Part shown: in pieces, positions 3-16,357 of the stretch
Numbering within the stretch: the stretch's first letter is position 1
Layout: each line of letters begins with the position of its first letter
Source of the DNA: an uncultured virus (IMG/VR IMGVR_UViG_3300044630_001353)
Lineage: Duplodnaviria > Heunggongvirae > Uroviricota > Caudoviricetes
Virus record (IMG/VR): IMGVR_UViG_3300044630_001353
Length of the DNA stretch: 20,000 nt
Strand: one strand, 5' to 3'
Translations under genes and position numbers: made by a program
The notes under the pieces: model-generated
The model's input: the letters and a program-made list of their open reading frames with translations, nothing else
What the model was told of the DNA's origin: nothing
Databases searched by the model: none

Positions 3-3000
3 GAGCCTCAACGTGTGGCAGTTAAGAACCTTGTCATCAGCGCTGCTCAGCAAGTCAACCTGAAGCCGTATCAGGTGCAGTCAGTGTTGTGGTTCTATGA
101 ACAGCAACTCTTTAACAAACTTGGAACAGGAGCGAAGAGCTATGGATTCAGTGACGGTGCAAAAAAATTCGTTGAAACGCAAGGAGCTGGAAGCGGAAAA
201 GTGCCTCCTCCAACTGGGGGTGGTAATGCGCCAGCGAACAAACCAGCCGGACAGCGAGCAGGACAGGCAAGCGCTCCAGCGAGTCAACAACCTGCTGGCA
301 AACCTAAAAAGCTAAGCTTAGGTGTGGTGGGCGAAGTTGCCCCCAACCCTGACCACCCAACCGCCGCACAGTGGCGTGAGATGACGCAATCAGAACGTTT
401 AAACGCTACAACTGCGGTGGCCAGAAAGGTGATGAACGGCATCTTTGACGAGCTGAACCTTCAAGGCTACAAGTTTAAATTCTCTACCGGTACTTATGAA
501 GGTGAAATGAACCCCAACATTATTGTTGAGGCACCTGCAGACGCCAGCCTTGAGGAGCTTAATGAGCTAGCACGTGTCATGGGTTACGCCCTTGACCAAA
601 AAGCCATGGTCGTGTTTGATGATGAGAACACCAGCTCTGAAAATCAAGAAGGCCATGTCATGATAAAAGTGCCCGAGGGCATGAGCGAGGAAGTTTTTGA
701 CGCATTACGCGACCACATTGGTCGTGCCGTACCACAAGTTGAAGGCGACACCTTGCGTGATGGCATGTTGTATTTTGGCAATTTTTCCGCTTACAACGAC
801 AACATTGAAACGGTTACTGACAGACAGTATTATGATGCTATTAAAGATGCTGTCGCAACATTTGACTACGATGGCGACATTGAGATTTACGAGCCTCAGC
901 GGTTCCACAGTGAATTGATTTGGCCTGCAAACAGAGAAGCCTATTTAGAGGGGACACGCTATGGCGCGAGTAATCGAGAAGAAGTACCAGCAGGGGCAGA
1001 GGCCGTTCGGGGGTTCGGGGGTCGCCGTCTTCAGACCTTATCGGAAGACGCAATCGCCCTCAGAGACCGTTGGATTGACGCCCGAGGATCGGCTCGCCTC
1101 GGCGGCAGAAGCCAGCCTAATGCGACAAGTTATGGCGAACCAACAGCCGAGTATGGCACAGCAACGCCCGACTCAACCTCAGTCACAGGCGTCCACTTCA
1201 GCAAGCAAGCAAGAGCCTCAATAAACTCTGGCTTTTACGGCAACGGACTGCGCGGTTTAGAGTCCGAGCGTTTAAATGACCCAGCTAATTCCGACATCCG
1301 CTCACGTGCGTATTTTTACGTAGACACCGGAAAAGGTGTACGTCCGGAGGCTGGTGTTGGTGGCGTACCACACGTCATTCAACTAAACAATCTGTACGAT
1401 GCGCAGAAAGACCCGTTGCAGATCGTTAAGAATGTACGTGGTACCACAGCCGAGGAACGCGCTGACAGGCTAGAGCGTGGCATTATGAATGCTGGCTTTG
1501 ATGGTTACGTGACCCGCGACCCAATCATGAGCCAAGGTTTTGCGGTGTTGATTGGCAATCACAACATCAAGACTGGTCAAAAATACAGCCTGCAAGAAGC
1601 CCCAGATACGCCTGAGTTTAAACGGTGGTTTGGTGACAGCAAGGTTGTGGATGCTGATGGCAAGCCTTTAGTTGTTTACCACGCAACATCTGATGACTTT
1701 GATAGCTTTGACCCCTCCCAAGACAGAAGAGAAAATGGTTTAATTTTCTTTGCCGAAGATTCTGCTAATGCAGAAGCAACAAGATTTTTTGACAAGAGAG
1801 AAGCAACGCAGGTTATGCCTGTGTATTTACAAATTAAGAAAATGTTTAACGGACTTCAAGGAGTTCCCAAAGAACTGCAAAACTGGATATTGTCAAACAA
1901 AAATAATTTAAAAAAAGAGCTAAACCAATACGAGCAAGATTGGGGCTTGGCACTGAGCGCCTTAGACTATCTTGACAAGGATGACACGGGCAATTTCAAC
2001 CCTAAAAATTACATCAAAGCAATAGCCAGTGGCGAATGGCAGGCAATTGAGGCATCCAAGTCTTTAATTAACAAAATTAAAGAGCTTGGTTATGACGGCA
2101 TCAAGATGTATGAAGACGGCAATACCTACGCCGTATTTAAACCTACGCAAATCAAATCAGCCACAGGCAACATTGGTACGTTTGACGCCACCAACCCCGA
2201 CATTCGTTACAGTCTTCGGGCAGTGGAGGACACACCTAACTTTAAACGCTTCTTTAAAGAGAGCAAGTTCGTGGACAACAACGGCAACCCGTTGACGATG
2301 TACCACGCAACCAACGCCGACATTGTTGAGTTCAACAGCTCTGAGGACGGCAAGCTTGGCGCTGGCATTTACTTGTCATCAGCCCCTGACTATGTGACGC
2401 AGTACGCCCCCGAGGGCAATGTAATGCCTTTGTACGCAAGCGCACAGAACCCTTACGTTTTAAACATCCGCAGTGAAGCTGTTAAGAGCACCTTGCAAAG
2501 CAAGTTGCCTTTTGTCAATGGCATCAACAAGCAGATGGAAGAGGCCGTCACCAAACTTACTGACGGTAAGAAACGTTTAAAGGACCTAAACGGGGAGCAG
2601 GTTCGTAATTTGTTTAAACGCAATGGCTACGACGGCATCATCGCCCGGGACGACGCGGGCAACATCATTGAAGCTACAGTGTTTAAACCTCAGCAGGTAA
2701 AGTCTGCGATTGGTAACGTTGGAACCTTTAGCCCAAAGAGCAAAGACATCCGCTACAGCTTGCGTGATGCCACCGATATGTTTACCGGCAAAGAACTCGA
2801 CAAAGCTTCCAAGACTGAATATAAGGGCCGCTACAAGCTGGTCAACATGCCTATTGATGACTTCTTAAAGTTGTCAAAAATTGCTGGTCAAGACGCCGGT
2901 GCGCAAGGCAGGGCTGATGAAAGAGTGCAAGCTGGTACACCATTTACCAGTGTGCCTTACTTGTACGTAGACCCTGACGGTACTGATTTGCGTGTGACCG

Positions 3001-5810
3001 GACACGATGGCAGACACCGCGCCCGTGCTTTAAAGAGTGCAGGCTACGACACCATGCCAGTCGAATTGCGTAGCATGATCCGCTGGTCGGAGCAGGCTGA
3101 CCCTGAGAGCGCGGATTACCAAGAGACTTGGCCTGAGCGCATCTATGCCGAGGAAGGCGCTCTGCGTGAAGGCGCATCTATCCCCATGCCGGTTACACGG
3201 GAAGAGTCGCCAAAAAACTACACAGCGCCAACCAAGAAACTGAGCGTGCGCAGTGTTGAAGACAGAATTAAGGCTCTGCCTAACGGTGACAAAATGCACC
3301 AAGCGGTATCCAGTAAGACTACGGTCCGCGAGGAGAAGAGCATTGCTCAGCGCATCCTTGATGCATTTGCAGGCGATAGCATTGCATCCATACGCCAGCA
3401 GGCGTTTAACCGCTACAACCAACTGAGCGTCTATGACAAGCGTTTGGCTGATCAAATGGGTGGGGTAGAGTTGTTGGCTGACTCCAGCGCGGAGGCGGCG
3501 GCGTTGCTTTCAGATACCGCATCAGGCGTAGCGGCGGCGGCCTTTGGTGTAAACAATATTGGCGGTGCCCCCGTGTATCGTAACGGCGTTACAGTCGTAG
3601 ATAACTTTGACGGCAAAGTCAAGGGCTTGATGGACATCCTCATGCCGTTGGCTGAGTTAAAAGACCCATACGCTTACCGCGCCTTCCAGTTCTATGCGGC
3701 ATCCAAACGCGGTACCCGCTTTGACAATGACGGCAAAGAGAAGTTGTTTGACAAAGATGATTTTGCTCACGCAGCGGCATTGGAAACAGAATTTCCTATG
3801 TTTAAACAGGTACACAAGGACTGGATTGCGTACAACGACAAGCTTGTTGATTACATGGTGGCTACTGGCATCATTAGTAAAGACAAGGCTAAAGAGTTCA
3901 CCAAGTACGCTGACTACATTCCGTTCTACCGCCAGCTTGAAGGTCAGGACACCATTGGCCCTAGAGTCTTCCAAAGCATCTCAGGCGTCAAGACTCCTAA
4001 AAAGCTCAAGGGTGGCGAGGCCCCGTTAGCTGACTTCATGGAAACCATTGTCCGCAACACTCAGTCCATCATCCAAGCAGGCATGAAGAACACTGCCGGT
4101 CAAAAGGCTGTGGGTGTGGCAATGCAGTTGGGTGATGCCGAGTTACTGCCCAAACAGTCAAGCGCTCCCGGAACAATTACCATCATGCGCAATGGTGAAT
4201 ACGAATCCTACGGTGTGGCCGACGAGCTGTTTGTAAACTCAGTGAAGAGTTTAAACATGCCTGATGTGCAGCTTTGGGGAATTTTTGCTGGCCCAGCCGG
4301 GTTACTGCGTAGCATGGTTACCAAAGACCCCGGCTTCATGTTAGCCAACTTGTTGCGTGACTCGATGTCAGCCTACGTAACGAGCGGTGTCAAGATGACC
4401 CCTGTTGCTGACACCGTAGCTAATTTTGGACGCGCATTGGGCGGGGAAGACCCAACATACATAGCGCTGGTAAAAGCCGGCATTTTGGGTGGATACGACT
4501 ACGCCCAAGGGGTAGAGAGAAGTGGCAGTCAATTGTCCGCAGACCTTCGCAAACGGGTGGGCAACCAATCGCTAAGTGAACGCGCCATGGATGGTTTTGG
4601 CTTGTGGAGTGCGCTTGAAAAAGGAACCTCTGCGTCCGATGCCGCTACCCGCATGGCTGTTTACAACCAAGTCCTTAAAGACACAGGCAACGAGGCTGAG
4701 GCAATCTTCCGCGCACTTGAGGTGATGAACTTCAACCGCAAGGGTGCTAACCCTATGATCCGTCTACTTACTGCCGCAATCCCCTTCCTAAACGCACGTA
4801 TGCAGGGCTTGGATATTTTCTACCGCGCAGGCATCCGACCCTCCTTTGAACAGAACCCAACCGAGCGTCAGAAAGCAATACAGAAAACGTTTTGGACACG
4901 TGGTATGTACCTCACCTCATTGAGTGTTGCGTACTGGGCAATGACCCATGACGACGATGACTACAAGAAGCAAGAGCAAGAGACCCGCGATAACAACTGG
5001 CTGATCCCATCGTTGGGTGTAAAGATTCCAATCCCGTTTGAGGTGGGTGTGCTGTTTAAAGTAATACCTGAACGCATGCTGGGTTACTACTTAGGCGACG
5101 ATACAGGCAAAGACTTTGCAGACTCAATGGGACGTGCGGCTTGGAGCACCTTTGGCTTCTTGCCAGTGCCTCAGACTGCGTTGCCAATGCTTGAGGCGGC
5201 AACCAATTATTCTTTCTACACAGGTAGAAACATTGTCGGTGCCGGCATGGAGGGGGTCTTCCCTGAGTTCCAAAAAGGTCCAAGCACCTCTAAGGTTGCA
5301 ACGCTTTTGGGTGAACAACTGGGTATTTCCCCCATGAAAGTGGATCACATGATCAAGGGGTATACCGGAACGATTGGTACCTACATGGTGGACGTCATTG
5401 ATTCGATTGGTGATTTAAACAGCGAGTCTCCTAAAGCTGCCAAGCGTTTTGAGCAGATGCCTGTGATTAAACGCTTTGCTGTAGACCCTGAAGCCAAAGG
5501 TCAAGTTACCGCTTACTACAAGTTAAAAGACGCAGTCGATGAAACTGTCCGGACAATTAACTTGTTGGAAAGAACTGGACGGTATGAAGAGCTAGCGGAG
5601 TATGGTCAGAAAAATGCCAAACTCTTTGCCTCTCGCCAATACATTTCCGGCATGGAAAAGCAAATGAAGCAAATGCGTGAAGCCGCACTGCAAGTTAACA
5701 GTTCCACTATGAGTGCTGAGGAGAAGCGGGCAACCTTGAGCGCAATCAATCAGGCTCAAATTAAGCTGACCGAGCACGTTCAAGGTGTTAAGAAGATGTT
5801 GTCAGAGTAA
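3..5810 (+). CDS. Giant polyvalent phage protein, 5'-truncated (ART-like module, two ART-PolyVal-like modules, ParB-like module, C-terminal LPD38-like region); probably virion-injected
   Basis: Frame is open from the window edge (EPQRVAVKN...), more than 1930 aa. Two copies of the FKRWFGDSKVVDADGKPLVVYHAT...VMPVYL...GYDGI...VFKPTQIKSATGNIGTF..DIRYS signature (about 1606-2220 and 2233-2765). A more divergent H...YFY ART-like module at about 1183-1570. GHDGRHRARAL ParB/Srx-like motif near 3000. C-terminal IPFLNARMQG...IPIPFEVG...SPMKVDHMIKGYTG is typical of LPD38. Confidence 0.85.
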   Translation, partial: EPQRVAVKNLVISAAQQVNLKPYQVQSVLWFYEQQLFNKLGTGAKSYGFSDGAKKFVETQGAGSGKVPPPTGGGNAPANKPAGQRAGQASAPASQQPAGKPKKLSLGVVGEVAPNPDHPTAAQWREMTQSERLNATTAVARKVMNGIFDELNLQGYKFKFSTGTYEGEMNPNIIVEAPADASLEELNELARVMGYALDQKAMVVFDDENTSSENQEGHVMIKVPEGMSEEVFDALRDHIGRAVPQVEGDTLRDGMLYFGNFSAYNDNIETVTDRQYYDAIKDAVATFDYDGDIEIYEPQRFHSELIWPANREAYLEGTRYGASNREEVPAGAEAVRGFGGRRLQTLSEDAIALRDRWIDARGSARLGGRSQPNATSYGEPTAEYGTATPDSTSVTGVHFSKQARASINSGFYGNGLRGLESERLNDPANSDIRSRAYFYVDTGKGVRPEAGVGGVPHVIQLNNLYDAQKDPLQIVKNVRGTTAEERADRLERGIMNAGFDGYVTRDPIMSQGFAVLIGNHNIKTGQKYSLQEAPDTPEFKRWFGDSKVVDADGKPLVVYHATSDDFDSFDPSQDRRENGLIFFAEDSANAEATRFFDKREATQVMPVYLQIKKMFNGLQGVPKELQNWILSNKNNLKKELNQYEQDWGLALSALDYLDKDDTGNFNPKNYIKAIASGEWQAIEASKSLINKIKELGYDGIKMYEDGNTYAVFKPTQIKSATGNIGTFDATNPDIRYSLRAVEDTPNFKRFFKESKFVDNNGNPLTMYHATNADIVEFNSSEDGKLGAGIYLSSAPDYVTQYAPEGNVMPLYASAQNPYVLNIRSEAVKSTLQSKLPFVNGINKQMEEAVTKLTDGKKRLKDLNGEQVRNLFKRNGYDGIIARDDAGNIIEATVFKPQQVKSAIGNVGTFSPKSKDIRYSLRDATDMFTGKELDKASKTEYKGRYKLVNMPIDDFLKLSKIAGQDAGAQGRADERVQAGTPFTSVPYLYVDPDGTDLRVTGHDGRHRARALKSAGYDTMPVELRSMIRWSEQADPESADYQETWPERIYAEEGALREGASIPMPVTREESPKNYTAPTKKLSVRSVEDRIKALPNGDKMHQAVSSKTTVREEKSIAQRILDAFAGDSIASIRQQAFNRYNQLSVYDKRLADQMGGVELLADSSAEAAALLSDTASGVAAAAFGVNNIGGAPVYRNGVTVVDNFDGKVKGLMDILMPLAELKDPYAYRAFQFYAASKRGTRFDNDGKEKLFDKDDFAHAAALETEFPMFKQVHKDWIAYNDKLVDYMVATGIISKDKAKEFTKYADYIPFYRQLEGQDTIGPRVFQSISGVKTPKKLKGGEAPLADFMETIVRNTQSIIQAGMKNTAGQKAVGVAMQLGDAELLPKQSSAPGTITIMRNGEYESYGVADELFVNSVKSLNMPDVQLWGIFAGPAGLLRSMVTKDPGFMLANLLRDSMSAYVTSGVKMTPVADTVANFGRALGGEDPTYIALVKAGILGGYDYAQGVERSGSQLSADLRKRVGNQSLSERAMDGFGLWSALEKGTSASDAATRMAVYNQVLKDTGNEAEAIFRALEVMNFNRKGANPMIRLLTAAIPFLNARMQGLDIFYRAGIRPSFEQNPTERQKAIQKTFWTRGMYLTSLSVAYWAMTHDDDDYKKQEQETRDNNWLIPSLGVKIPIPFEVGVLFKVIPERMLGYYLGDDTGKDFADSMGRAAWSTFGFLPVPQTALPMLEAATNYSFYTGRNIVGAGMEGVFPEFQKGPSTSKVATLLGEQLGISPMKVDHMIKGYTGTIGTYMVDVIDSIGDLNSESPKAAKRFEQMPVIKRFAVDPEAKGQVTAYYKLKDAVDETVRTINLLERTGRYEELAEYGQKNAKLFASRQYISGMEKQMKQMREAALQVNSSTMSAEEKRATLSAINQAQIKLTEHVQGVKKMLSE

Positions 5811-6857: not shown

Positions 6858-7153
6858 GTTTTCATGTTCCTTATGTAGACTGCAAAGCTTGCCGTTGTAT
6901 TGCCACCATTTTTCATGCGGTCAAACTCTTGGGCAACTTGTTCCAGTACTTGGTTGCGAACATCGTACTTTTTAGGATCAATGGCTAATTTCAGTGCATC
7001 ATTTATTTGACGGTACACCAAAGCCTCCTCTAACAATTGCTCCATCTCTTTGGCGGCTTGCAAATGAAAGGGGCTGATTGGCACATTGCTAGCAATTGAG
7101 CGCATCATGCCAATGGTTTGTCTTACTGTGGTTTCACTTAAACGTTTAGGCAT
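6854..7153 (-). CDS. hypothetical phage protein (99 aa)
   Basis: Overlaps both neighbours; C-terminal RNQVLEQVA...[11 protein letters not shown] resembles common small phage proteins. Confidence 0.7.
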
Positions 7154-7529
7154 GTGGCACCCTTAACGCTAAACCAATTTCAGCCAACTTTTCACTTACT
7201 TCCTTTTGGCTCTTACGCCCTAAGTTTGGAAGCTTAAGCAGTTCATTAGCTGTCCACTGCTGTAGCTGACCAATGGTGTAAATACCAGCCGCCTTCAAGC
7301 AGTTCCCTGTTCTAACCGTTAACTCCAACCCCTCCACGTACTGCGATGGAAGTTGATGGTTGTTTAAACGTACCAAAGCATCCGTTCTGCTTTTGATCAT
7401 TTCTTCGGCAAGTATGTACGCATTATTGGCGACGTGACTTAATTGGTTTCTATTAGAAAACACTACGCCATTCATGGCGGCTTTCATTGCCTGTATAGCA
7501 AAATTGTCCATCATCTCTTCTTGTGTCAT
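7146..7529 (-). CDS. Protein with RNA polymerase alpha-subunit C-terminal domain (alpha-CTD) fused to a short N-terminal phage domain
   Basis: [25 protein letters not shown]...[21 protein letters not shown] closely matches RpoA CTD (LELTVRSANCLK...LLKTPNLGKKS); ATG at 7529 with GGAG RBS. Confidence 0.85.
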
Positions 7530-7612
7530 GTTGGTACTCCCATAAAGAAAATTGCTCCCCAAAACATAATCACCGCAATGATGATGTATGTCCATATTGT
7601 TGAATTTTTCAT
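7526..7612 (-). CDS. 28-aa single-pass membrane peptide ([28 protein letters not shown]); not in ORF track
   Basis: Manual translation; ATGA overlaps with both flanking genes; fills the gap exactly. Confidence 0.65.
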
Positions 7613-10075: not shown

Positions 10076-10770
10076 TGTGTTTCTCCTTCAGAAAATTGCT
10101 TTTTAAGCTCTTGGAACTTTGATAAAACCTGTTGGTACAGGTCGGGGTGCGTCACCTTCAGCGAGTCAAGCTGAAGCTGATTGCTCTTCCAGTAGCTGTT
10201 TAAACCAGCTACGGTGGTGCAGTGGGTGGTGTACTCAACCATTCCATCTGCAAACAATTGGCGGCTAGCGTCCGAGTTATCCAATGACTCATCGGCCTTT
10301 GGTGCGGTCTTGGCTAGTATTTTTTCGTACTTAGGTGCGTCTTCCTTTTTGGTTAACTCACCCATGGTGGTGGAGGCATCGTCTGACTGCGGAAGATCGT
10401 CTCCCGAATAGATGTATAGGCCAAGTCCATGGAGGGCTAAAGCTTTGGTCATGCAACGCATGATGGCCGTGTTGACCTGAAACGCATCAGGGCTTTGGAT
10501 GGGCTGATTGCGGTGGTTCATGATCGGCAACATGCAGGTCATTGGCTTGTTAAACATAGTGACCATGACCCAAACCATACCGGTACCGTTGACATTCATG
10601 TAGGGCATCTCAACGCCCTGCGCATCATGAAACGTCTGCACTTCAAAGGAGGCGGCAGGGTCAGCCTTCAAAGCCTCAGCCCATGCCCACGCCCATGAAA
10701 GGTACGTTAAGCCGTTTTTCTTTTCGGTGTGCTCATTGACATTGAGCTTCAATAAATCAAGCGGGGACAT
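10072..10770 (-). CDS. Sak/Rad52-like single-strand annealing protein (DUF1071)
   Basis: LNVNEHTEKKNGLTYLSWAWAW...FQVNTAIMRCMTKALALHGLGLYIYSGDDLP; ATG 10770 after AAGGAG. Confidence 0.85.
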   Translation of the reverse strand: MSPLDLLKLNVNEHTEKKNGLTYLSWAWAWAEALKADPAASFEVQTFHDAQGVEMPYMNVNGTGMVWVMVTMFNKPMTCMLPIMNHRNQPIQSPDAFQVNTAIMRCMTKALALHGLGLYIYSGDDLPQSDDASTTMGELTKKEDAPKYEKILAKTAPKADESLDNSDASRQLFADGMVEYTTHCTTVAGLNSYWKSNQLQLDSLKVTHPDLYQQVLSKFQELKKQFSEGETQ

Positions 10771-11623
10771 TGATTTCTCCTTGGTACTGTTTACACCACT
10801 TGCTGACTCCACAGAAATCTCCTGTGCAACGCTTTGGCTCGCCTTTGCGGGTTTCGACATATCCTTTTTCCTTTTCTGCCAACTCGGTGGCTTCTTCTAA
10901 CGTTTTAAATACTCTGATCGCAGTCTTGCGACCCTCCCTCTTCGTTGCGTAAGTTGTTTCACTCATCCAACGCTCTTCATCGGTGCAGGGCTGAAGCTCG
11001 TCACCAAAGTCATGTGCCACTCGGGCATTGCGGTGCATCTCAAGACGCTCCCGCACGTAAGTCTCAGTCCGGACTGCGTCCCACATTGGGATGTCAATCA
11101 TGATTGCCTCAGCTTCAGGGTAACCCTCGCTGGTGTCATGGGGTGAGTAGTCCTTGACGATGGCACAAATCTGCAGTCCCTTGACTTGCACCTTCTTGAC
11201 GGTCTCAACCAGCCATTTGTAAATGTTTAACTGCGTCATCCAGTCATCCTTGCCCTGCTTGACTGACCACGCCTTGACAAACTTGTAGTCGATGATGATC
11301 ACACCGCCATCGACGTGTTGCTGAAGGTCAATGGCACCGCTGATGATCACGCCATCAACCTCGGTAAAGATGCGCTCCTCATTGGTGTAGCCCTCAATCT
11401 CCTTGGCCTCAAGCTTGCCGTGCATGAAAGTCCCAAGCTGGGACGCAATCATTTTGGTGACGTCGATGGTCATCGACGCATCGTACTGTTCGCGTAATCT
11501 GCGAATCTTTGGTGGCGACATTAGCTCTGTAACGCTATACTGTGAGGAGCCCTTACTGTAATAGTTACGTGAGAGCAAAGCCACTAACGGTGCGGGTAGG
11601 TTCTGCTTGTTGGTTATTTCCAT
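10757..11623 (-). CDS. PD-(D/E)XK (RecB/Cas4-like) exonuclease
   Basis: SVTEL...GTFMH...EER...ISGAIDL...IIDYK...QLNIY; C-terminal RC..FC...WC cysteines; adjacent to the annealase. Confidence 0.85.
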   Translation of the reverse strand: MEITNKQNLPAPLVALLSRNYYSKGSSQYSVTELMSPPKIRRLREQYDASMTIDVTKMIASQLGTFMHGKLEAKEIEGYTNEERIFTEVDGVIISGAIDLQQHVDGGVIIIDYKFVKAWSVKQGKDDWMTQLNIYKWLVETVKKVQVKGLQICAIVKDYSPHDTSEGYPEAEAIMIDIPMWDAVRTETYVRERLEMHRNARVAHDFGDELQPCTDEERWMSETTYATKREGRKTAIRVFKTLEEATELAEKEKGYVETRKGEPKRCTGDFCGVSKWCKQYQGEINVPA

Positions 11624-11643
11624 TATCTCTCCGAGGTGTTGTT

Positions 11644-12072
11644 ATGAATGCGAACTTGAATAATAGCGATGTTATCACAGAATTGCAAGAGCTATCATTA
11701 ATTATTTTTGGTGAGCCGGCATCCAAGGCTAATTCAAGGCGTGTTGTGAGGTACGGAGGGATGTCAAGGCTAATCAAATCTAAAAAAGCTTTGAGCTACA
11801 GTGATGTATTTTTACAACAGTGCCCAACACTTCCTACACTAATGACTAGTGATGTGCGAATTACTCTCCGAATTTATTACGCGTCACGACGACCCGACTT
11901 GGATGAGACGTTGATACTGGACTTGTTGCAGGGGAGGGTGTATTTAAACGACCGGCAGGTGAAAGAGCGGCACGCTTTCTGGGGGTTGGATGTAAACAAC
12001 CCGCGCACTGAGATGCTGATTCAGGAGATACCTGAAGTGGTGCCAAAAAAGAACCCCACCAAGCGAACCTAG
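11644..12072 (+). CDS. RusA-like Holliday junction resolvase
   Basis: GEPASKANSRR...RRPDLD...LDLLQGRVYLNDRQV...DVNNPRTE; ATG 11644 after GAGGT. Confidence 0.75.
   Translation: MNANLNNSDVITELQELSLIIFGEPASKANSRRVVRYGGMSRLIKSKKALSYSDVFLQQCPTLPTLMTSDVRITLRIYYASRRPDLDETLILDLLQGRVYLNDRQVKERHAFWGLDVNNPRTEMLIQEIPEVVPKKNPTKRT
11660..11688 (-). promoter_or_regulatory. sigma70-type promoter for the leftward recombination operon
   Basis: Minus strand TTGCAA (11688-11683), 17 nt, TATTAT (11665-11660); about 35 bp upstream of ATG 11623, which has a GGAGAG RBS. Confidence 0.55.
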
Positions 12073-12078
12073 TGGGGT
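12045..12078 (-). terminator. intrinsic terminator (minus strand)
   Basis: Minus strand ACCCCACTAG-GTTCG-CTTGGTGGGGT followed by TCTTTTTT. Confidence 0.7.
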
Positions 12079-12117
12079 CTAAAGGAACCAACAATAGCAA
12101 CTGCTGGAGGAGAGATG
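12045..12117 (-). ncRNA. candidate ~70-nt antisense small RNA
   Basis: Bounded by a minus-strand TTGACA/TATACT promoter and an intrinsic terminator; internal hairpin CCAGCAG-TTGCTA-TTGTTGG; no ORF. Confidence 0.45.
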
Positions 12118-12122
12118 CCCTA

Positions 12123-12149
12123 AGTATAGCGCATTTCAGGACGTGTCAA
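12123..12149 (-). promoter_or_regulatory. leftward sigma70-like promoter
   Basis: Minus strand TTGACA (12149-12144), 15 nt, TATACT (12128-12123); spacer is shorter than optimal. Confidence 0.45.
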
Positions 12150-12198
12150 CACGTATCAATACGCTCCATTACCGTCCATTAACGTCCAAAGAAGTCCA

Positions 12199-12242
12199 GC
12201 AAAGGTACGTCTCGGCGGGTGCAAAGGTACGTCTCGGCGGGT
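12199..12242 (+). repeat. perfect 22-bp tandem repeat, two copies
   Basis: GCAAAGGTACGTCTCGGCGGGT at 12199-12220 and 12221-12242. Confidence 0.95.
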
Positions 12243-12350
12243 TTTGTTGTACGTTTAAACATGCTTGCAGCGGCTGCCCGGGGAACGCCGTAAACGTTTA
12301 AACGCAACATAACCGCTGCCCGGGAACAGGTACTTTAGATGGGTATCTGC

Positions 12351-12376
12351 TGTCACCTTAGCCGGCTAGCGTGACA
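12351..12376. promoter_or_regulatory. 26-bp near-perfect palindrome, candidate operator
   Basis: TGTCAC-ct-TAGCCGGCTA-gc-GTGACA, ending about 20 bp upstream of the -35 box at 12396. Confidence 0.5.
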
Positions 12377-12395
12377 AAATATTTTTGTGCAACGC

Positions 12396-12426
12396 TTGAC
12401 ACAGCCTGAGAAATTGTGTTTATAAT
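12396..12426 (+). promoter_or_regulatory. rightward sigma70-type promoter
   Basis: Consensus TTGACA (12396-12401) and TATAAT (12421-12426), 19-nt spacer, AT-rich upstream tract. Confidence 0.65.
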
Positions 12427-12432
12427 TTAATC

Positions 12433-12538
12433 GTTGCCGTGAGAAGCGACAGATTTAGGCCACTTAATTCTACTCTCGCCCTTGGTTTTTGCCGCAGGGT
12501 TCTCACCGAGGGTAGAGCTAAGTGGCCTTTCTGTTTTT
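12433..12538 (+). ncRNA. structured RNA / leader (C4- or CI-antisense-like architecture)
   Basis: Starts just after the -10 box; 5-bp hairpin with loop CGUGAGAA; long stem 12457-12466/12519-12528 and 12469-12478/12507-12516; bulge UUCUCAC complementary to the loop; followed by a U tract. Confidence 0.6.
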
Positions 12539-12896
12539 GAGACTAGGACTGTGCAATGGGTTAGCGCCATTGTGGACTGCCTTTCTATGTTTTGAACACA
12601 CTGCTTAATGTGAGCAGTTCTAGTCTCACCCCTCCTACGACAACCGTACTCCACACGATAGCAAGGGGTAGAAATCTGCCTGCGTGGAAGCAAAGGGTTA
12701 CGTGGTATGCGCAAGCTAGGGGGCAGTTCCCGAATAATCCACGGTGCTGGTCGTATCTGCAAGCATAGGGGTCAGCTAACGCTGACATGCAGAAGCTTTA
12801 ACAAGCGGTGAAACCATCCCTCTCTACTCCTTGGGGTAGGGGGGTCTATGGGTGAAATATTAACAAAGCCCCGCCAAGGGGCGTAAAGGAGAGAAG

Positions 12897-13127
12897 ATGG
12901 AAACAGTAAAAAAGTACAGTGACTCCAAGAGTTACAGGGACGCGCAAAGAGGTGTTCAGCACCAAGGCATCGAGGATGCCACTCAAGAGGGCATCAGGGC
13001 TATTGGGTTGCTCCTAGACTTTGACAATGACCTGAGTCCGGTCGCAGAGAAAAAAATACGGGATATTCTGCGTTTGCTTGTAGTCATCAGGCACAAAAAC
13101 AGAGTGATCAAGGAGCACAACCCATGA
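12897..13127 (+). CDS. hypothetical phage protein (76 aa)
   Basis: AAGGAGAG RBS; first gene of the rightward operon. Confidence 0.7.
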   Translation: METVKKYSDSKSYRDAQRGVQHQGIEDATQEGIRAIGLLLDFDNDLSPVAEKKIRDILRLLVVIRHKNRVIKEHNP

Positions 13128-13342
13128 AATACAACGCAGAGCAAGTAGCATTTATGTTGGCCGAGGCCATAGACCAAAACCGTGAGTACCAGTCATGGCA
13201 CTGCAGTACTCAGCACCTAATGACCCTTGTGGAAAGGGTTGTTGCTGAAGAGCGTGAGGCGTGTGCAAAGGTATGTGAGGATAGCGTTGAAGAGGCTGGC
13301 GATGAATTAGCATGGCAAATCCGAGCAAGGGGCAACTCATGA
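13124..13342 (+). CDS. hypothetical phage protein, EREACAK...IRARG family
   Basis: ATGA coupling; C-terminal EREACAKVCE...IRARG. Confidence 0.75.
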   Translation: MKYNAEQVAFMLAEAIDQNREYQSWHCSTQHLMTLVERVVAEEREACAKVCEDSVEEAGDELAWQIRARGNS

Positions 13343-13572
13343 CACAAGCTGAAATCATTGCAATGCTGAGAGCATCGTGCGACAAAGACAAAGTAGACCC
13401 TGAGCAAAATGGCTTTTGGGTAATTCATACTCCAGAACTTGAAGCCTTTGCCAAGTTAATAGCACAGCATGAGCGTGAAGCGTGTGCAAAGATTGCAGAT
13501 GAGTGGGCAGTCGGCTGGCCTCATCCCGCAAAAACTATTGCTTTAGACATCCGAGCAAGGGGACAAGCATGA
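13339..13572 (+). CDS. hypothetical phage protein, EREACAK...IRARG family (shares C-terminal module with previous gene)
   Basis: ATG 13339 overlaps previous stop; LEAFAKLIAQHEREACAK...IRARG. Confidence 0.75.
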   Translation: MTQAEIIAMLRASCDKDKVDPEQNGFWVIHTPELEAFAKLIAQHEREACAKIADEWAVGWPHPAKTIALDIRARGQA

Positions 13573-13772
13573 AGCAACGTGTTTACACGGTCGGTGTCGG
13601 TGATCAGGTCAGACTGGTCAGGGCATCCAACCGCAGGCAAGCCATCGCCCACGTATCACTGGGCATCATGACCATCAGGGTTGCCACACAGGAGGACATC
13701 ATTCATCAACTTGACAAAGGAATCCCAATAGAAAACTACACCGCCCCCGAGCAAATTGAACTAGAACTTTAA
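13569..13772 (+). CDS. hypothetical phage protein (MKQRVYTVG...RLVRASNRRQAIAHV)
   Basis: ATG 13569 in ATGA overlap. Confidence 0.75.
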   Translation: MKQRVYTVGVGDQVRLVRASNRRQAIAHVSLGIMTIRVATQEDIIHQLDKGIPIENYTAPEQIELEL

Positions 13773-13790
13773 ACAACGTAGGAGAGAACC

Positions 13791-14093
13791 ATGGACTTTA
13801 GAAAATTATTCCGCAGAGAATCACGTCAAACATCCATCGATGCCGCAGAAAGCATCGTGCCGTCATTAACTGACATCCAAAACGCAGTGTTGCAATATGC
13901 CAACACTATGCCTACTGGTTTCACCGATGACCAAATGAATCGTCACTTCCAAACTTATGGGTCAACGTACCGCACCCGCAGGGCTGAACTCACAGCTAAA
14001 AATATAATTGCAGATTCGGGAAAACTCGCTCGACTGCCTAGCGGTCGGAATGCTACAGTTTGGGTTTTGGCTAAGTATATGGAGAAGTCATGA
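13791..14093 (+). CDS. hypothetical protein, possible winged-helix DNA-binding protein
   Basis: AGGAGAG RBS; TSIDAAES...GFTDDQM...RTRRAEL...DSG...SGRNATVW. Confidence 0.7.
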   Translation: MDFRKLFRRESRQTSIDAAESIVPSLTDIQNAVLQYANTMPTGFTDDQMNRHFQTYGSTYRTRRAELTAKNIIADSGKLARLPSGRNATVWVLAKYMEKS

Positions 14094-14341
14094 CCCGCAA
14101 CTACAAGCAAGAATACGCAAACTACGATGGCACAGAGGCTGTGAAAAAGAAACGCGCCCAACGCAACAAAGCAAGGCGCATGTTGGAGCGTGAAGGTGTA
14201 GTTCACAAAGGCGATGGCAAAGATGTTGACCACAAAAAACCACTGAGCAAAGGTGGGACTACGGTCATGAGCAACCTGAAGGCGAAGCCGGCCTCCGCCA
14301 ACCGTTCGTTTAAACGTAACTCGGACGGCTCGATGAAATGA
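14090..14341 (+). CDS. small HNH endonuclease-like protein
   Basis: DGKDVDHKKPLSKGG...SNL...ANRS; basic N-terminus RAQRNKARR. Confidence 0.8.
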   Translation: MTRNYKQEYANYDGTEAVKKKRAQRNKARRMLEREGVVHKGDGKDVDHKKPLSKGGTTVMSNLKAKPASANRSFKRNSDGSMK

Positions 14342-16029
14342 CCCCCGCATTTGTGGAGCAATTCCATTTCAACGAAACCACTCGGGTGCCCTGCCCGTAC
14401 TGCTCGCAAGAGCGTAGCAAATCAAATCAAAAAGACATGACGCTGACGCGCAAAGCGGATGGTGCAGTCGTATTCCATTGCCATCATTGCCAAACCAGTG
14501 GCTCGGTGCAACCAACACAACAACAACTGGAGAGAAAATTGTCAGCAGTCCCACAAACCACAATCATTTCCCATAAGCTGGGCGATGCTCATTATGCGTA
14601 CCTAGCACAGCGGGGCATCTCAGCCGCAACCGCAGACCTGATGAAACTCTTTTCTGCTGATAAATATTTCAGCAAGCTAGGGCGTCAATCGGATGCAATA
14701 GGGTTCCCTTACTTTCGCAACGGTGCCCTCATTGCCGCCAAGTACCGATCATTCCCTGACAAAGACTTTACACAGGACGCAGGCGGGGCACATGATTTCT
14801 TTGGCATTGAACACGTCATCAAAGGTCAGCCCATCATCATCGTCGAGGGTGAAATTGATTGCTTGACGGCGATTGAATGTGGTTTAAACAACGTAGTGTC
14901 AGTGCCGGCAGGAGCGCCCATCAAGGTAGCGGACGGCAAAGTTCTACCCTCAGAGGACAAACGCTTCTCTTACGTGTGGAATGCGAGGGAGTTATTGGAT
15001 GCCGCACCGTACGTAATACTTGCAACTGATCAGGATACCGCAGGGCAGGCGTTAGCGGAGGAGTTAGCTAGACGCATCGGCAAGGAGAAGTGCCGGCTCG
15101 CCAAGTTCACGAAAAAGGATTTAAACGAGGTGCACTTGGGTGACCCGTCTCGGACAGGGGAGGTGCAGGCGATCATCGATGGCGCAACCGCGTACCCGAT
15201 CAGCGGAATTTCCGACGCAGCAACATACTACGAGCGTTTAAACGATCTCTACACAAAGGGCACCGGCAAGGGATTCTCAACCGGCTACACCTCGGTTGAT
15301 GAAATCTACACCGTGGCACCCGCACAGTTAACGGTGGTGACTGGGTACCCAAGCTCGGGTAAATCAAACTTCATCGATCAGGTCATGGTCAATTTAGCCA
15401 ACGCCCATGATTGGAAGTTTGCTGTGTGCTCGTTTGAAAACCAGCCTGAAATCCACATCAGCCGACTCATGGAAATCTACACCCGCAAGCGCTTCTTTGA
15501 GGGTAAGGAGCGGATGTCGGAGGCGGAGAAGGAGAGTGCGTTTAAATTCGTTAAGGATCATTTTCTTTTCATCGATACCAATGGGGAGGAGCCCAGCACC
15601 TTGGACTCCATCCTTGAGCGGGCACGTGCGGCAGTGAAGCGGATGGGTGTACGTGGGCTGATCATTGATCCCTACAACTACATTGAGTTGCCCCGCAATG
15701 AGGGCACAGAGACAGCGGCAATCAGCGACATGCTGACCCGAGTGCAGAAGTTTTGCAAAGCGCACGATGTCCACACGTGGTTCATTGCGCACCCCTCTAA
15801 GATCACCCGACAGGGCGTTGAACAGCCGCGCCCTGATGGGATGTCCATCGCAGGCAGTATGGCGTGGTGGGCGAAGACTGACTGTGGACTCACCGTGCAC
15901 CGAAAGGATCACCACGTTGAGATCGCAGTTTGGAAGTGTCGTTATCGCTGGGTGGGAACACAGGGTGAAACGACGATGCTTTATAACAAAACGGCTGGAA
16001 CCTACTCGGAGAACCTAGATGCATTCTGA
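14338..16029 (+). CDS. bifunctional DNA primase-helicase (T7 gp4/Twinkle-like)
   Basis: Zinc-binding CPYC...CHHC; TOPRIM IIIVEGEIDC and ILATDQDTAG; KDLNE; SF4 helicase Walker A GYPSSGKS, SFEN, LIIDPYN, AHPSK, IAGS. Confidence 0.92.
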   Translation: MTPAFVEQFHFNETTRVPCPYCSQERSKSNQKDMTLTRKADGAVVFHCHHCQTSGSVQPTQQQLERKLSAVPQTTIISHKLGDAHYAYLAQRGISAATADLMKLFSADKYFSKLGRQSDAIGFPYFRNGALIAAKYRSFPDKDFTQDAGGAHDFFGIEHVIKGQPIIIVEGEIDCLTAIECGLNNVVSVPAGAPIKVADGKVLPSEDKRFSYVWNARELLDAAPYVILATDQDTAGQALAEELARRIGKEKCRLAKFTKKDLNEVHLGDPSRTGEVQAIIDGATAYPISGISDAATYYERLNDLYTKGTGKGFSTGYTSVDEIYTVAPAQLTVVTGYPSSGKSNFIDQVMVNLANAHDWKFAVCSFENQPEIHISRLMEIYTRKRFFEGKERMSEAEKESAFKFVKDHFLFIDTNGEEPSTLDSILERARAAVKRMGVRGLIIDPYNYIELPRNEGTETAAISDMLTRVQKFCKAHDVHTWFIAHPSKITRQGVEQPRPDGMSIAGSMAWWAKTDCGLTVHRKDHHVEIAVWKCRYRWVGTQGETTMLYNKTAGTYSENLDAF

Positions 16030-16357
16030 CAGTTTAAACACAACCCCAGAGGGAGGCTCAGCAGGTGAGCTACCCGTTAACCAGAAACCGCGTTTAAACA
16101 AACGCGAAGAAATTGCCCAAGACTTTGATGGCGGTTTGCTTTTTTTAAGTGAGCCGGAATACGATGACGCAATCATTGGGGTTGCGCATAGGATTGGTAT
16201 GGAGGATGTCGTGGCGTACGATTCCAACAAGGTCTATGAGGTTATCGGCAAGCTGATTAACACCGAAGATCACATGGAGATATTCGAATACTTTGAGTTC
16301 AACATCTTGGGCGCGTACGTTGGCGAGCGGACACCCGTATTCATTGATGTTGTTTAA
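16019..16357 (+). CDS. conserved hypothetical phage protein
   Basis: YDDAIIGV...VVAYD...EYFEFNILGAYVGERTPVF. Confidence 0.8.
   Translation: MHSDSLNTTPEGGSAGELPVNQKPRLNKREEIAQDFDGGLLFLSEPEYDDAIIGVAHRIGMEDVVAYDSNKVYEVIGKLINTEDHMEIFEYFEFNILGAYVGERTPVFIDVV

What the first reader, a model, noticed from the sequence alone, without database searches (positions are those of the whole stretch)
12433..12538. Pseudoknotted leader RNA with a 7-nt loop-bulge complementarity
Seen: hairpin GUUGC-[CGUGAGAA]-GCGAC (12433-12450), then a long stem AGGCCACUUA/UAAGUGGCCU plus UCUACUCUCG/CGAGGGUAGA, capped by a small CCCU..AGGG hairpin. This leaves UUCUCAC (12500-12506) unpaired and exactly complementary to GUGAGAA (12439-12445). 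A U-rich tract follows. Known: P4 CI and P1 C4 antisense RNAs are processed from leaders and use short exposed segments to pair with leader targets and cause premature termination. Inference: an RNA-based attenuation or immunity switch controlling the replication operon; family identity is not established.
Basis: partly seen in the sequence, partly recalled or inferred. Interest (0 to 1): 0.7.

Follow-up and report, generated by a model that had tools for sequence, protein, structure and literature searches.

The report
Lock-and-key terminator RNA of phages
A 100-letter folded RNA at the start of this phage's replication genes carries a seven-letter 'lock' and its matching 'key', which change together from one related phage to the next; it matches no catalogued RNA family and probably lets a phage switch off the replication genes of its own kind.

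Summary
The structure at 12433-12538 is real and conserved. It starts 6 nt after a sigma-70 -10 box: a 5' hairpin, an 8-nt linker, a ~20-bp stalk with a 7-nt bulge, and a U-tract. Loop and bulge covary: 97 of 108 relatives chosen without regard to the pairing have a perfect match (39 different heptamers; chimera control 6%), and 99.5% of kiss cells pair in a 55-sequence alignment. The heptamer differs in 68 of 100 pairs with near-identical flanks, as expected of a specificity code. No Rfam model matches. The window's heptamer is identical to that of P4 seqA/CI, and 12 relatives have the CI/C4 three-way fold. Unlike P4 or P1, no second target or second recognition loop was found, the stalk itself runs into the U-tract, and 0 of 19 near-complete carriers encode an integrase, CI-type repressor or ParA. 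Best reading (about 0.5): in cis the kiss blocks termination; accumulated short RNA captures the loop in trans and restores it, giving code-specific shut-off of early and replication genes. Expression, termination, trans action and host are not shown.

The parts
12396..12426 (+). sigma-70-type promoter: TTGACA 12396-12401, TATAAT 12421-12426, 19-nt spacer
   Evidence: Read from sequence. Not listed by the scan, which allows 16-18 nt spacers only. In the family the best -10 box ends 6-7 nt before the element in 96 of 106.
12433..12450 (+). 5' hairpin P1 at the inferred +1; loop carries the 7-nt code (12439-12445), G-U-N-R at its 5' side
   Evidence: 93.8% of cells paired in 55 sequences; purine at code position 4 in 95 of 96
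12451..12458 (+). linker of near-fixed length
   Evidence: 8-9 nt in 79 of 106, range 6-12
12457..12528 (+). long stalk with variable apical hairpin; its base is the terminator-like hairpin
   Evidence: 98.5% and 97.0% paired, 16 of 19 pairs with two-sided changes; 3' strand 20-21 nt in 92 of 106 while the span between stalk start and bulge varies 31-61 nt
12500..12506 (+). 7-nt bulge complementary to the 5' loop
   Evidence: kiss helix 99.5% paired, 5 of 7 pairs with two-sided changes; exact in 103 of 106
12527..12538 (+). U-rich tract (interrupted in this phage)
   Evidence: present in all 15 full-length members, 12 and 39 of 39, whose patterns did not require it
12538..12628 (+). optional second structured module (B), not part of the kiss
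   Evidence: -34.0 kcal/mol fold and recurrence with invariant loops up- or downstream of the element; downstream in 9 of 106
12644..12710 (+). conserved non-coding module (C) of the read-through leader
   Evidence: covarying 5-bp helix across 107 occurrences; no shared open frame in 44 loci
12897..16357 (+). operon behind the leader: small ORFs, HNH-like ORF 14090-14341, primase-helicase 14338-16029
   Evidence: ORFs; PHROG 239 E 3e-85; Toprim and DnaB_C

Best explanation
A self-contained RNA attenuator with a specificity code. Host RNA polymerase starts at the 5' hairpin (inferred from promoter spacing). When the bulge heptamer leaves the polymerase, about 20 nt before the stalk can close, it pairs with the 5' loop (pairing shown by covariation; timing inferred). 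This ties the linker and the 5' stalk strand into a ring and hinders the stalk base from closing in the exit channel, so polymerase reads through into the early and replication genes (inferred). Transcripts that miss the kiss close the stalk and stop in the U-tract as a ~100-nt RNA. That RNA, whole or after loss of its 5' hairpin, offers its bulge to the 5' loop of new transcripts with the same code, pre-empts their own kiss and makes them terminate (inferred by analogy with P4 CI/seqA and ColIb-P9 Inc). The result is feedback on the phage's own replication genes and shut-off of co-infecting phages with the same heptamer, which would explain why the code diversifies and the cassette is swapped.
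For: Pairing. Position at +1. Gate in front of genes: replication-initiator-like hits in 9, ParB-like in 3, primase/helicase in 1 of 55 downstream ORFs scanned; in a second subfamily an ATG follows the U-tract directly in 38 of 39, so read-through must occur and the stalk covers the ribosome-binding region. Specificity-like behaviour: code differs in 68 of 100 pairs with near-identical flanks; kiss positions differ about twice as often per base as the stalk 3' strand in flank-matched pairs (0.33 vs 0.13 at 95-99% downstream identity); 8-19 changes at four kiss pairs against at most 9 at any stalk pair on a tree; G-U pairs 0.9% in the kiss against 6-13% in other helices; conserved UNR, the U-turn signature of antisense recognition loops (PMC4485353 passages). 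Same heptamer pair as P4 and CI-like fold in 12 relatives. Precedent that structure next to a terminator can suppress it without sequence overlap (bioRxiv 10.64898/2026.06.17.733018, abstract and first third of Results).
Against: No transcript end, processing or trans action was observed (one search gave contigs only). The kiss duplex (-7.6 kcal/mol) is far weaker than closing the stalk (about -22 kcal/mol from nascent folds), so it can only be a kinetic or topological block. The fixed linker and stalk lengths equally fit a kiss that coexists with the closed stalk, in which case the short RNA would be self-locked and a poor trans inhibitor. In the tug-of-war study longer spacers (0-4 nt tested) favoured termination, and the linker here is 8-9 nt. 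Known trans systems use two recognition sites; here no second one was found. Carriers lack integrase, S24 repressor, resolvase and ParA (0 of 30), so there is no evident lysogen to be immune. The tree was built without the kiss columns, which favours the contrast, and the pairs are not independent.
Confidence: 0.5

Rival explanations
1. Purely cis attenuator: the kiss is an intramolecular folding element that sets a fixed or protein-controlled read-through fraction; the code varies by drift and recombination, with no trans pairing.
For: Both partners always lie in the same ~100 nt; fixed geometry; no other target near the element or elsewhere in 10 near-complete genomes (34 own-code sites against 39.5 for other codes).
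Against: The element is more variable than its own flanks and the code changes faster than the stalk; wobble pairs are almost absent from the kiss; a recognition-loop signature is kept.
Confidence: 0.25
2. Same parts, opposite sign: the cis kiss helps the stalk close (or protects the short RNA), and trans pairing between copies relieves termination, acting as a genome-copy or multiplicity sensor.
For: Geometry allows the kiss in the closed form if the linker is extended (rough estimate lengths; inference); code diversification would also follow.
Against: The stalk is stable enough without help; the known relatives P4 CI and P1 C4 repress (PMC4825925 and PMC5320573 passages).
Confidence: 0.12
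3. A stand-alone small RNA with its own terminator (decoy, or loop-bulge oligomer like a packaging RNA), with downstream genes fed by leak or by other promoters.
For: Strong promoter, U-tract, compact fold; occurs in front of unrelated genes, including major head proteins in 2 and a tail protein in 1 of 55 ORFs.
Against: Always co-oriented with and at the head of an operon; start codon fused to the U-tract in subfamily 2; a decoy would not need a rapidly changing code.
Confidence: 0.1
4. Chance complementarity beside an ordinary terminator.
For: A single 7-nt match in one sequence is not rare.
Against: 97 of 108 against 6.0% in chimeras; 39 of 39 in an independent subfamily.
Confidence: 0.01

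Closest known systems
Satellite phage P4 CI RNA with seqA/seqC; P1/P7 C4 RNA (Rfam RF01695 C4, RF03163 c4-a1b1, RF01394 isrK)
   Same: Leader-encoded RNA whose bulge is complementary to a hairpin loop upstream in the same transcript; P4 uses the identical loop and bulge heptamers; 12 relatives show a 17-18 bp stalk, a small tetraloop-type hairpin, a second hairpin and a 7-8 nt bulge like CI; in front of replication genes; specificity lies in the variable single-stranded part (PMC5320573 passages).
   Different: No model match either way (own model R1 misses P4 at E<=1). Target and bulge are 61 nt apart, about 220 nt in P4. P4 has a second copy of the target and a second loop with two targets; none found here. 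Here the stalk itself ends in the U-tract; in P4 the U-tract hairpin lies upstream of CI. Most members, the window included, lack the minor hairpin. Carriers lack lysogeny genes.
IncI-alpha plasmid ColIb-P9 repZ pseudoknot versus Inc antisense RNA
   Same: A hairpin loop is contested between an activating cis pseudoknot and a trans RNA, controlling replication genes (seen only as titles in the reference list of PMC10724649; details recalled).
   Different: Inc is transcribed from the opposite strand and controls translation; here the competitor would be the leader's own 3' part and the output mainly termination.
Tug-of-war transcriptional riboswitches (bioRxiv 10.64898/2026.06.17.733018)
   Same: Structure next to an intrinsic terminator controls it without sequence overlap.
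   Different: Ligand-driven, spacer 0-4 nt, no pairing into the terminator hairpin; here an RNA-RNA kiss into a bulge of the terminator stalk.
Antisense-driven attenuation of pT181/pIP501 (recalled; titles only)
   Same: Trans RNA binding a nascent leader causes premature termination before rep.
   Different: Antisense RNA from the opposite strand, with a classical antiterminator stem.

Membership tests
C4/CI antisense RNA (RF01695, clan CL00128) | Scores with the Rfam C4, c4-2, c4-a1b1 or isrK models | tested here: not met
   No such match at the locus (E<=5) or in 19, 20 and 14 further candidate loci; the P4 control scored 74.9 (C4), 60.8 (isrK), 44.1 (c4-a1b1) bits
C4/CI antisense RNA | Three stems P1, P2, P3 with an unpaired a' segment | tested here: inconclusive
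   Window and most members have two stems and the bulge; 12 of the 97 folded anchor-set members have the three-stem form (judged from MFE folds)
C4/CI antisense RNA | a' complementary to an upstream hairpin loop (a1/seqA), covarying | tested here: met
C4/CI antisense RNA | Second target downstream (a2/seqC) | tested here: not met
   Own code within 100 nt downstream 0 of 130 (1.08 expected), 600 nt 8 of 91 (3.55), 1200 nt 8 of 87 (5.45), scattered; no excess in 10 genomes
C4/CI antisense RNA | Second recognition loop b' with b1/b2 targets | tested here: not met
   Apical loop complements at 6 nt: 2 of 103 in the 5' part (1.7 expected), 18 of 89 downstream (19.7)
C4/CI antisense RNA | Released from the leader by RNase P | not testable with these tools
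   No read-level data
C4/CI antisense RNA | Maintains lysogeny/immunity of a temperate phage or satellite | tested here: inconclusive
   0 of 30 records (0 of 19 at least 90% complete) with PF00589, PF00717, PF00239 or PF13614; HTH_3 over cut-off in 2 of 30; function itself untested
Intrinsic terminator / attenuator | GC-based hairpin directly followed by a U-tract | tested here: met
   Family: 15 of 15 and 39 of 39 where the pattern did not require it; weak in the window (5 of 8)
Intrinsic terminator / attenuator | Measured 3' end in the U-tract and regulated read-through | not testable with these tools
   contigs only

The most novel reading that the evidence does not exclude
A widespread, protein-free immunity or exclusion system in aquatic phages that have no integrase, repressor or partition genes: one 100-nt transcript is promoter-proximal lock, key and terminator at once, antiterminates by a topological block (kiss before stalk), and its 7-nt code, exchanged as a cassette between otherwise near-identical phages, defines dozens of immunity groups. 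It would imply that these apparently lytic phages hold a repressed carrier state or police co-infection by RNA alone.
Probability: 0.3. Interest if true: 0.85.

Novelty: new variant of a known kind. Interest (0 to 1): 0.63.

Why it matters
RNA immunity is known from a few temperate enterobacterial phages and satellites. This is a minimal single-site version, found in well over 100 sequence variants of uncultured phages that lack the usual lysogeny genes. It makes two open questions directly testable with a 100-nt construct: whether phages classed as lytic regulate replication or exclude kin through RNA, and whether a loop-bulge kiss can block a terminator without an antiterminator stem. The natural set of about 40 codes is also a ready library of possibly orthogonal transcription switches.

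Tried and rejected
Rfam: no match at the locus. Cultured/GenBank phages: blastn of the element found nothing; a relative's leader found 1 record, an uncultured one, matching only the downstream part; the primase-helicase has no relative above 31.5% identity among the 25 listed. Bacterial genomes: 1 of 12 pattern hits is the element, on a 7-kb phage-like contig; 2 of 7 genomes of that order match R1, the second on a 29-kb contig whose identified genes are phage-like; neither shows a prophage or a host. Host not determined; the alpha-CTD protein search gave no taxa. RNA runs: 24 listed, all with shares of 0.14 or less; four were laid, two hold contigs of relatives over the element, some running upstream past the promoter, so they show neither ends nor transcription. 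A leader peptide after the U-tract in the main family was rejected: ATG in 14 of 106, no common frame. Lachnospiraceae-type hairpins with the same stalk ends (L089, L141, L142, L149) lack the 5' hairpin and promoter layout and were left out. A generic script search for further kiss-terminators recovered only 6 of 10 known elements and is uninformative. Different codes in paralogous copies of one genome (3 of 3) are not evidence of insulation, because the two subfamilies use different code sets. The small protein behind subfamily 2 has no useful family hit. A start-position slip affected about six sequences; geometry was recomputed.

Full report
Setting. The window is part of an uncultured tailed phage: a large polyvalent protein, Sak, an exonuclease, RusA and a primase-helicase are recognised. 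The finding lies in the 825-nt gap 12073-12896 before a rightward operon that contains the primase-helicase. The window's assembly is not held; the nearest record shares 58% of its words.

Observation. The fold is far better than shuffles (z = -5.25) and leaves 12500-12506 unpaired. Nothing in Rfam matches here (6 weak matches elsewhere in the window).

Family. A pattern on loop plus stalk gave 17 loci, 16 of them the element, one cut by a contig end; one of these is identical to the window over the stretch shown. The scan anchored on the stalk end and a downstream motif does not look at the loop or the bulge: 97 of its 108 distinct regions hold a perfect 7-nt match beginning GU, with 40 heptamers, one of them a spurious register; 3 more have a non-GU match and 3 look unrelated by eye. 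Chimeras of different members match in 698 of 11556 cases. From 107 distinct elements I kept 73 below 93% identity and aligned the 55 of up to 105 nt, dropping 18 longer ones. On that alignment 94.9% of cells pair against 78.4% in shuffles (0 of 500) and 37-49% in slid controls; the kiss helix is 99.5% paired, its first two pairs are nearly invariant and the other five change on both sides in 33, 9, 34, 18 and 29 sequences. After correcting a register slip, 103 of 106 parsed elements have an exact match, with 30 codes. A model built from the alignment found weaker second copies in 3 of 30 records; a stalk-only pattern for this second subfamily gave 74 loci, 39 distinct, all 39 with a 7-nt match.

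Anatomy. The best -10 box ends 6-7 nt before the element in 96 of 106 cases, and position -1 is a pyrimidine in 105 of 106, so the 5' hairpin is most likely the start of the transcript (inference). Linker 8-9 nt in 79 of 106; 3' stalk strand 20-21 nt in 92 of 106; the apical part is free to vary. The U-tract was required by my filters for the main set, but is also present in the sets that did not require it. The loop reads G-U-N-R in 95 of 96, close to the YUNR U-turn of antisense recognition loops (PMC4485353, passages). In subfamily 2 an ATG follows the U-tract in 38 of 39; a purine-rich run lies in the paired 3' strand just before it, but that run was part of my pattern. In one complete genome the two copies head two early operons, one beginning with a replication-initiator-like gene, the other divergent from the terminase operon. 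Of 55 downstream ORFs scanned (chosen by eye from 159 to avoid near-duplicates), 9 hit replication-initiator families, 4 HNH, 3 ParB-like, 1 primase/helicase, 2 major head, 1 tail.

The code behaves like a specificity determinant. Among 122 records, 100 pairs have near-identical flanks on both sides; 68 of them differ in code, and element identity falls to 55-60% in many, which points to cassette exchange (pairs not independent). On a tree built without the kiss columns, kiss pairs 3-6 change 18, 8, 19 and 11 times, stalk pairs at most 9; G-U pairs make up 0.9% of the kiss and 6-13% of other helices (85 sequences). One member has a loop of one code and a bulge of another (L008).

No other partner. 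The own code is not enriched downstream except for a mild, scattered excess within 600 nt (8 of 91 against 3.55), nor in 10 near-complete genomes (34 against 39.5 sites; 7 against 9.1 in hairpins). The apical loop has no partner. The only conserved partner of the bulge is thus the 5' loop, in the same molecule or in another copy of it.

Lifestyle. None of 30 long carrier records (19 at least 90% complete) has a tyrosine integrase, S24 repressor, serine resolvase or ParA; controls rang in 14, 9, 12 and 14 of 14 genomes. HTH_3 passes its cut-off in 2 of 30. The background rate in such phages was not measured. The two bacterial-genome matches are on phage-like contigs. A Betaproteobacteria-1 RNA directly behind one member (95.6 bits) is the only host hint.

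Mechanism. Shown: the pairing, its covariation, the layout. Inferred: start site, termination, order of folding, trans action. The bulge is transcribed about 20 nt before the stalk can close, and nascent folds leave loop and bulge largely free. A kiss at that moment closes a ring that includes the 5' stalk strand; winding two helical turns with the 3' end held by polymerase, and fitting the stalk base into the exit channel, should then be hindered (inference). That would make the kiss an antiterminator without an antiterminator stem; structure-only suppression of terminators has been reported (bioRxiv 10.64898/2026.06.17.733018; abstract and first third of Results read), though with shorter spacers. 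Terminated RNA could then capture the 5' loop of new transcripts, as CI does with seqA (PMC4825925 and PMC10111431, passages). Against this, the kiss is weak beside the stalk and the fixed geometry also fits a self-locked RNA. I give this reading 0.5, cis-only 0.25, opposite sign 0.12, stand-alone RNA 0.1.

Comparison. It works like P4 CI/seqA and P1 C4: the P4 record has the same loop and bulge heptamers, codes seen here recur in the c4-a1b1 rows shown from the supplement of PMC2864571, and 12 relatives have the three-stem fold; in 5 others the code sits in a hairpin loop. It is not a member by test: no model match in either direction, no second target, no second loop. Common ancestry with C4 is plausible but not shown.

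Prior description. Not found in Rfam 15 or in five literature searches aimed at it. The supplement of PMC5737381 (c4-2 text; main-text passages only) and the alignment files of PMC10690425, which lists 8495 unnamed candidates from the same virus collection (passages and three tables searched), could not be read; the stalk may be among those candidates. Eight unchecked notes of this scan describe similar kissing terminator leaders in other genomes, none by sequence or place; they suggest a recurring design and are not used as support.

Verdict. Real, uncatalogued, a compact variant of the CI/C4 kind with unusually strong comparative support, in phages that lack lysogeny genes; function untested. 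Interest 0.63.

Noticed in passing
window 12538-12628 (+): Second structured module with a long closing stem and two invariant loop motifs; it occurs behind the kiss element in some phages and in front of its promoter in others, twice in L044, L111 and L282. No Rfam match.
   Followed up: partly
window 12644-12810 (+): Conserved non-coding modules in the read-through leader; a 5-bp helix covaries across 107 occurrences and a further pairing of its first bases suggests a pseudoknot (by eye). In L093 a Betaproteobacteria-1 RNA takes this place.
   Followed up: partly
window 12199-12242: Two perfect 22-nt tandem copies, followed by further short direct repeats and a 26-nt palindrome at 12351-12376; possible origin or operator region between the divergent operons.
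   Followed up: no
window 7146-7595 (-): Phage gene with an RNA polymerase alpha C-terminal domain (PF03118, E 1e-19); 35 relatives of 87-149 aa; possible decoy or activator.
   Followed up: partly
window 15-5810 (+): 1931-aa polyvalent protein with ART-PolyVal and LPD38 domains.
   Followed up: no
L287, L300, L310, L332: 471 onward (+): Small Lys/Arg-rich ORFs whose start codon abuts the U-tract of subfamily 2; no family found.
   Followed up: partly
L002 1021-1440, L139 966-1409 and relatives: The replication-initiator-like ORFs behind the leader match only the C-terminal part of the known families (profile positions about 170-270); no N-terminal DNA-binding part was seen.
   Followed up: no
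L157, L174, L185, L186: tRNA genes lie 60-500 nt upstream of the element in several relatives.
   Followed up: no
window 11542-12072 (+) and 10757-11623 (-): A RusA-like ORF on the + strand lies head to head with the leftward exonuclease-Sak operon, between it and the leader.
   Followed up: no
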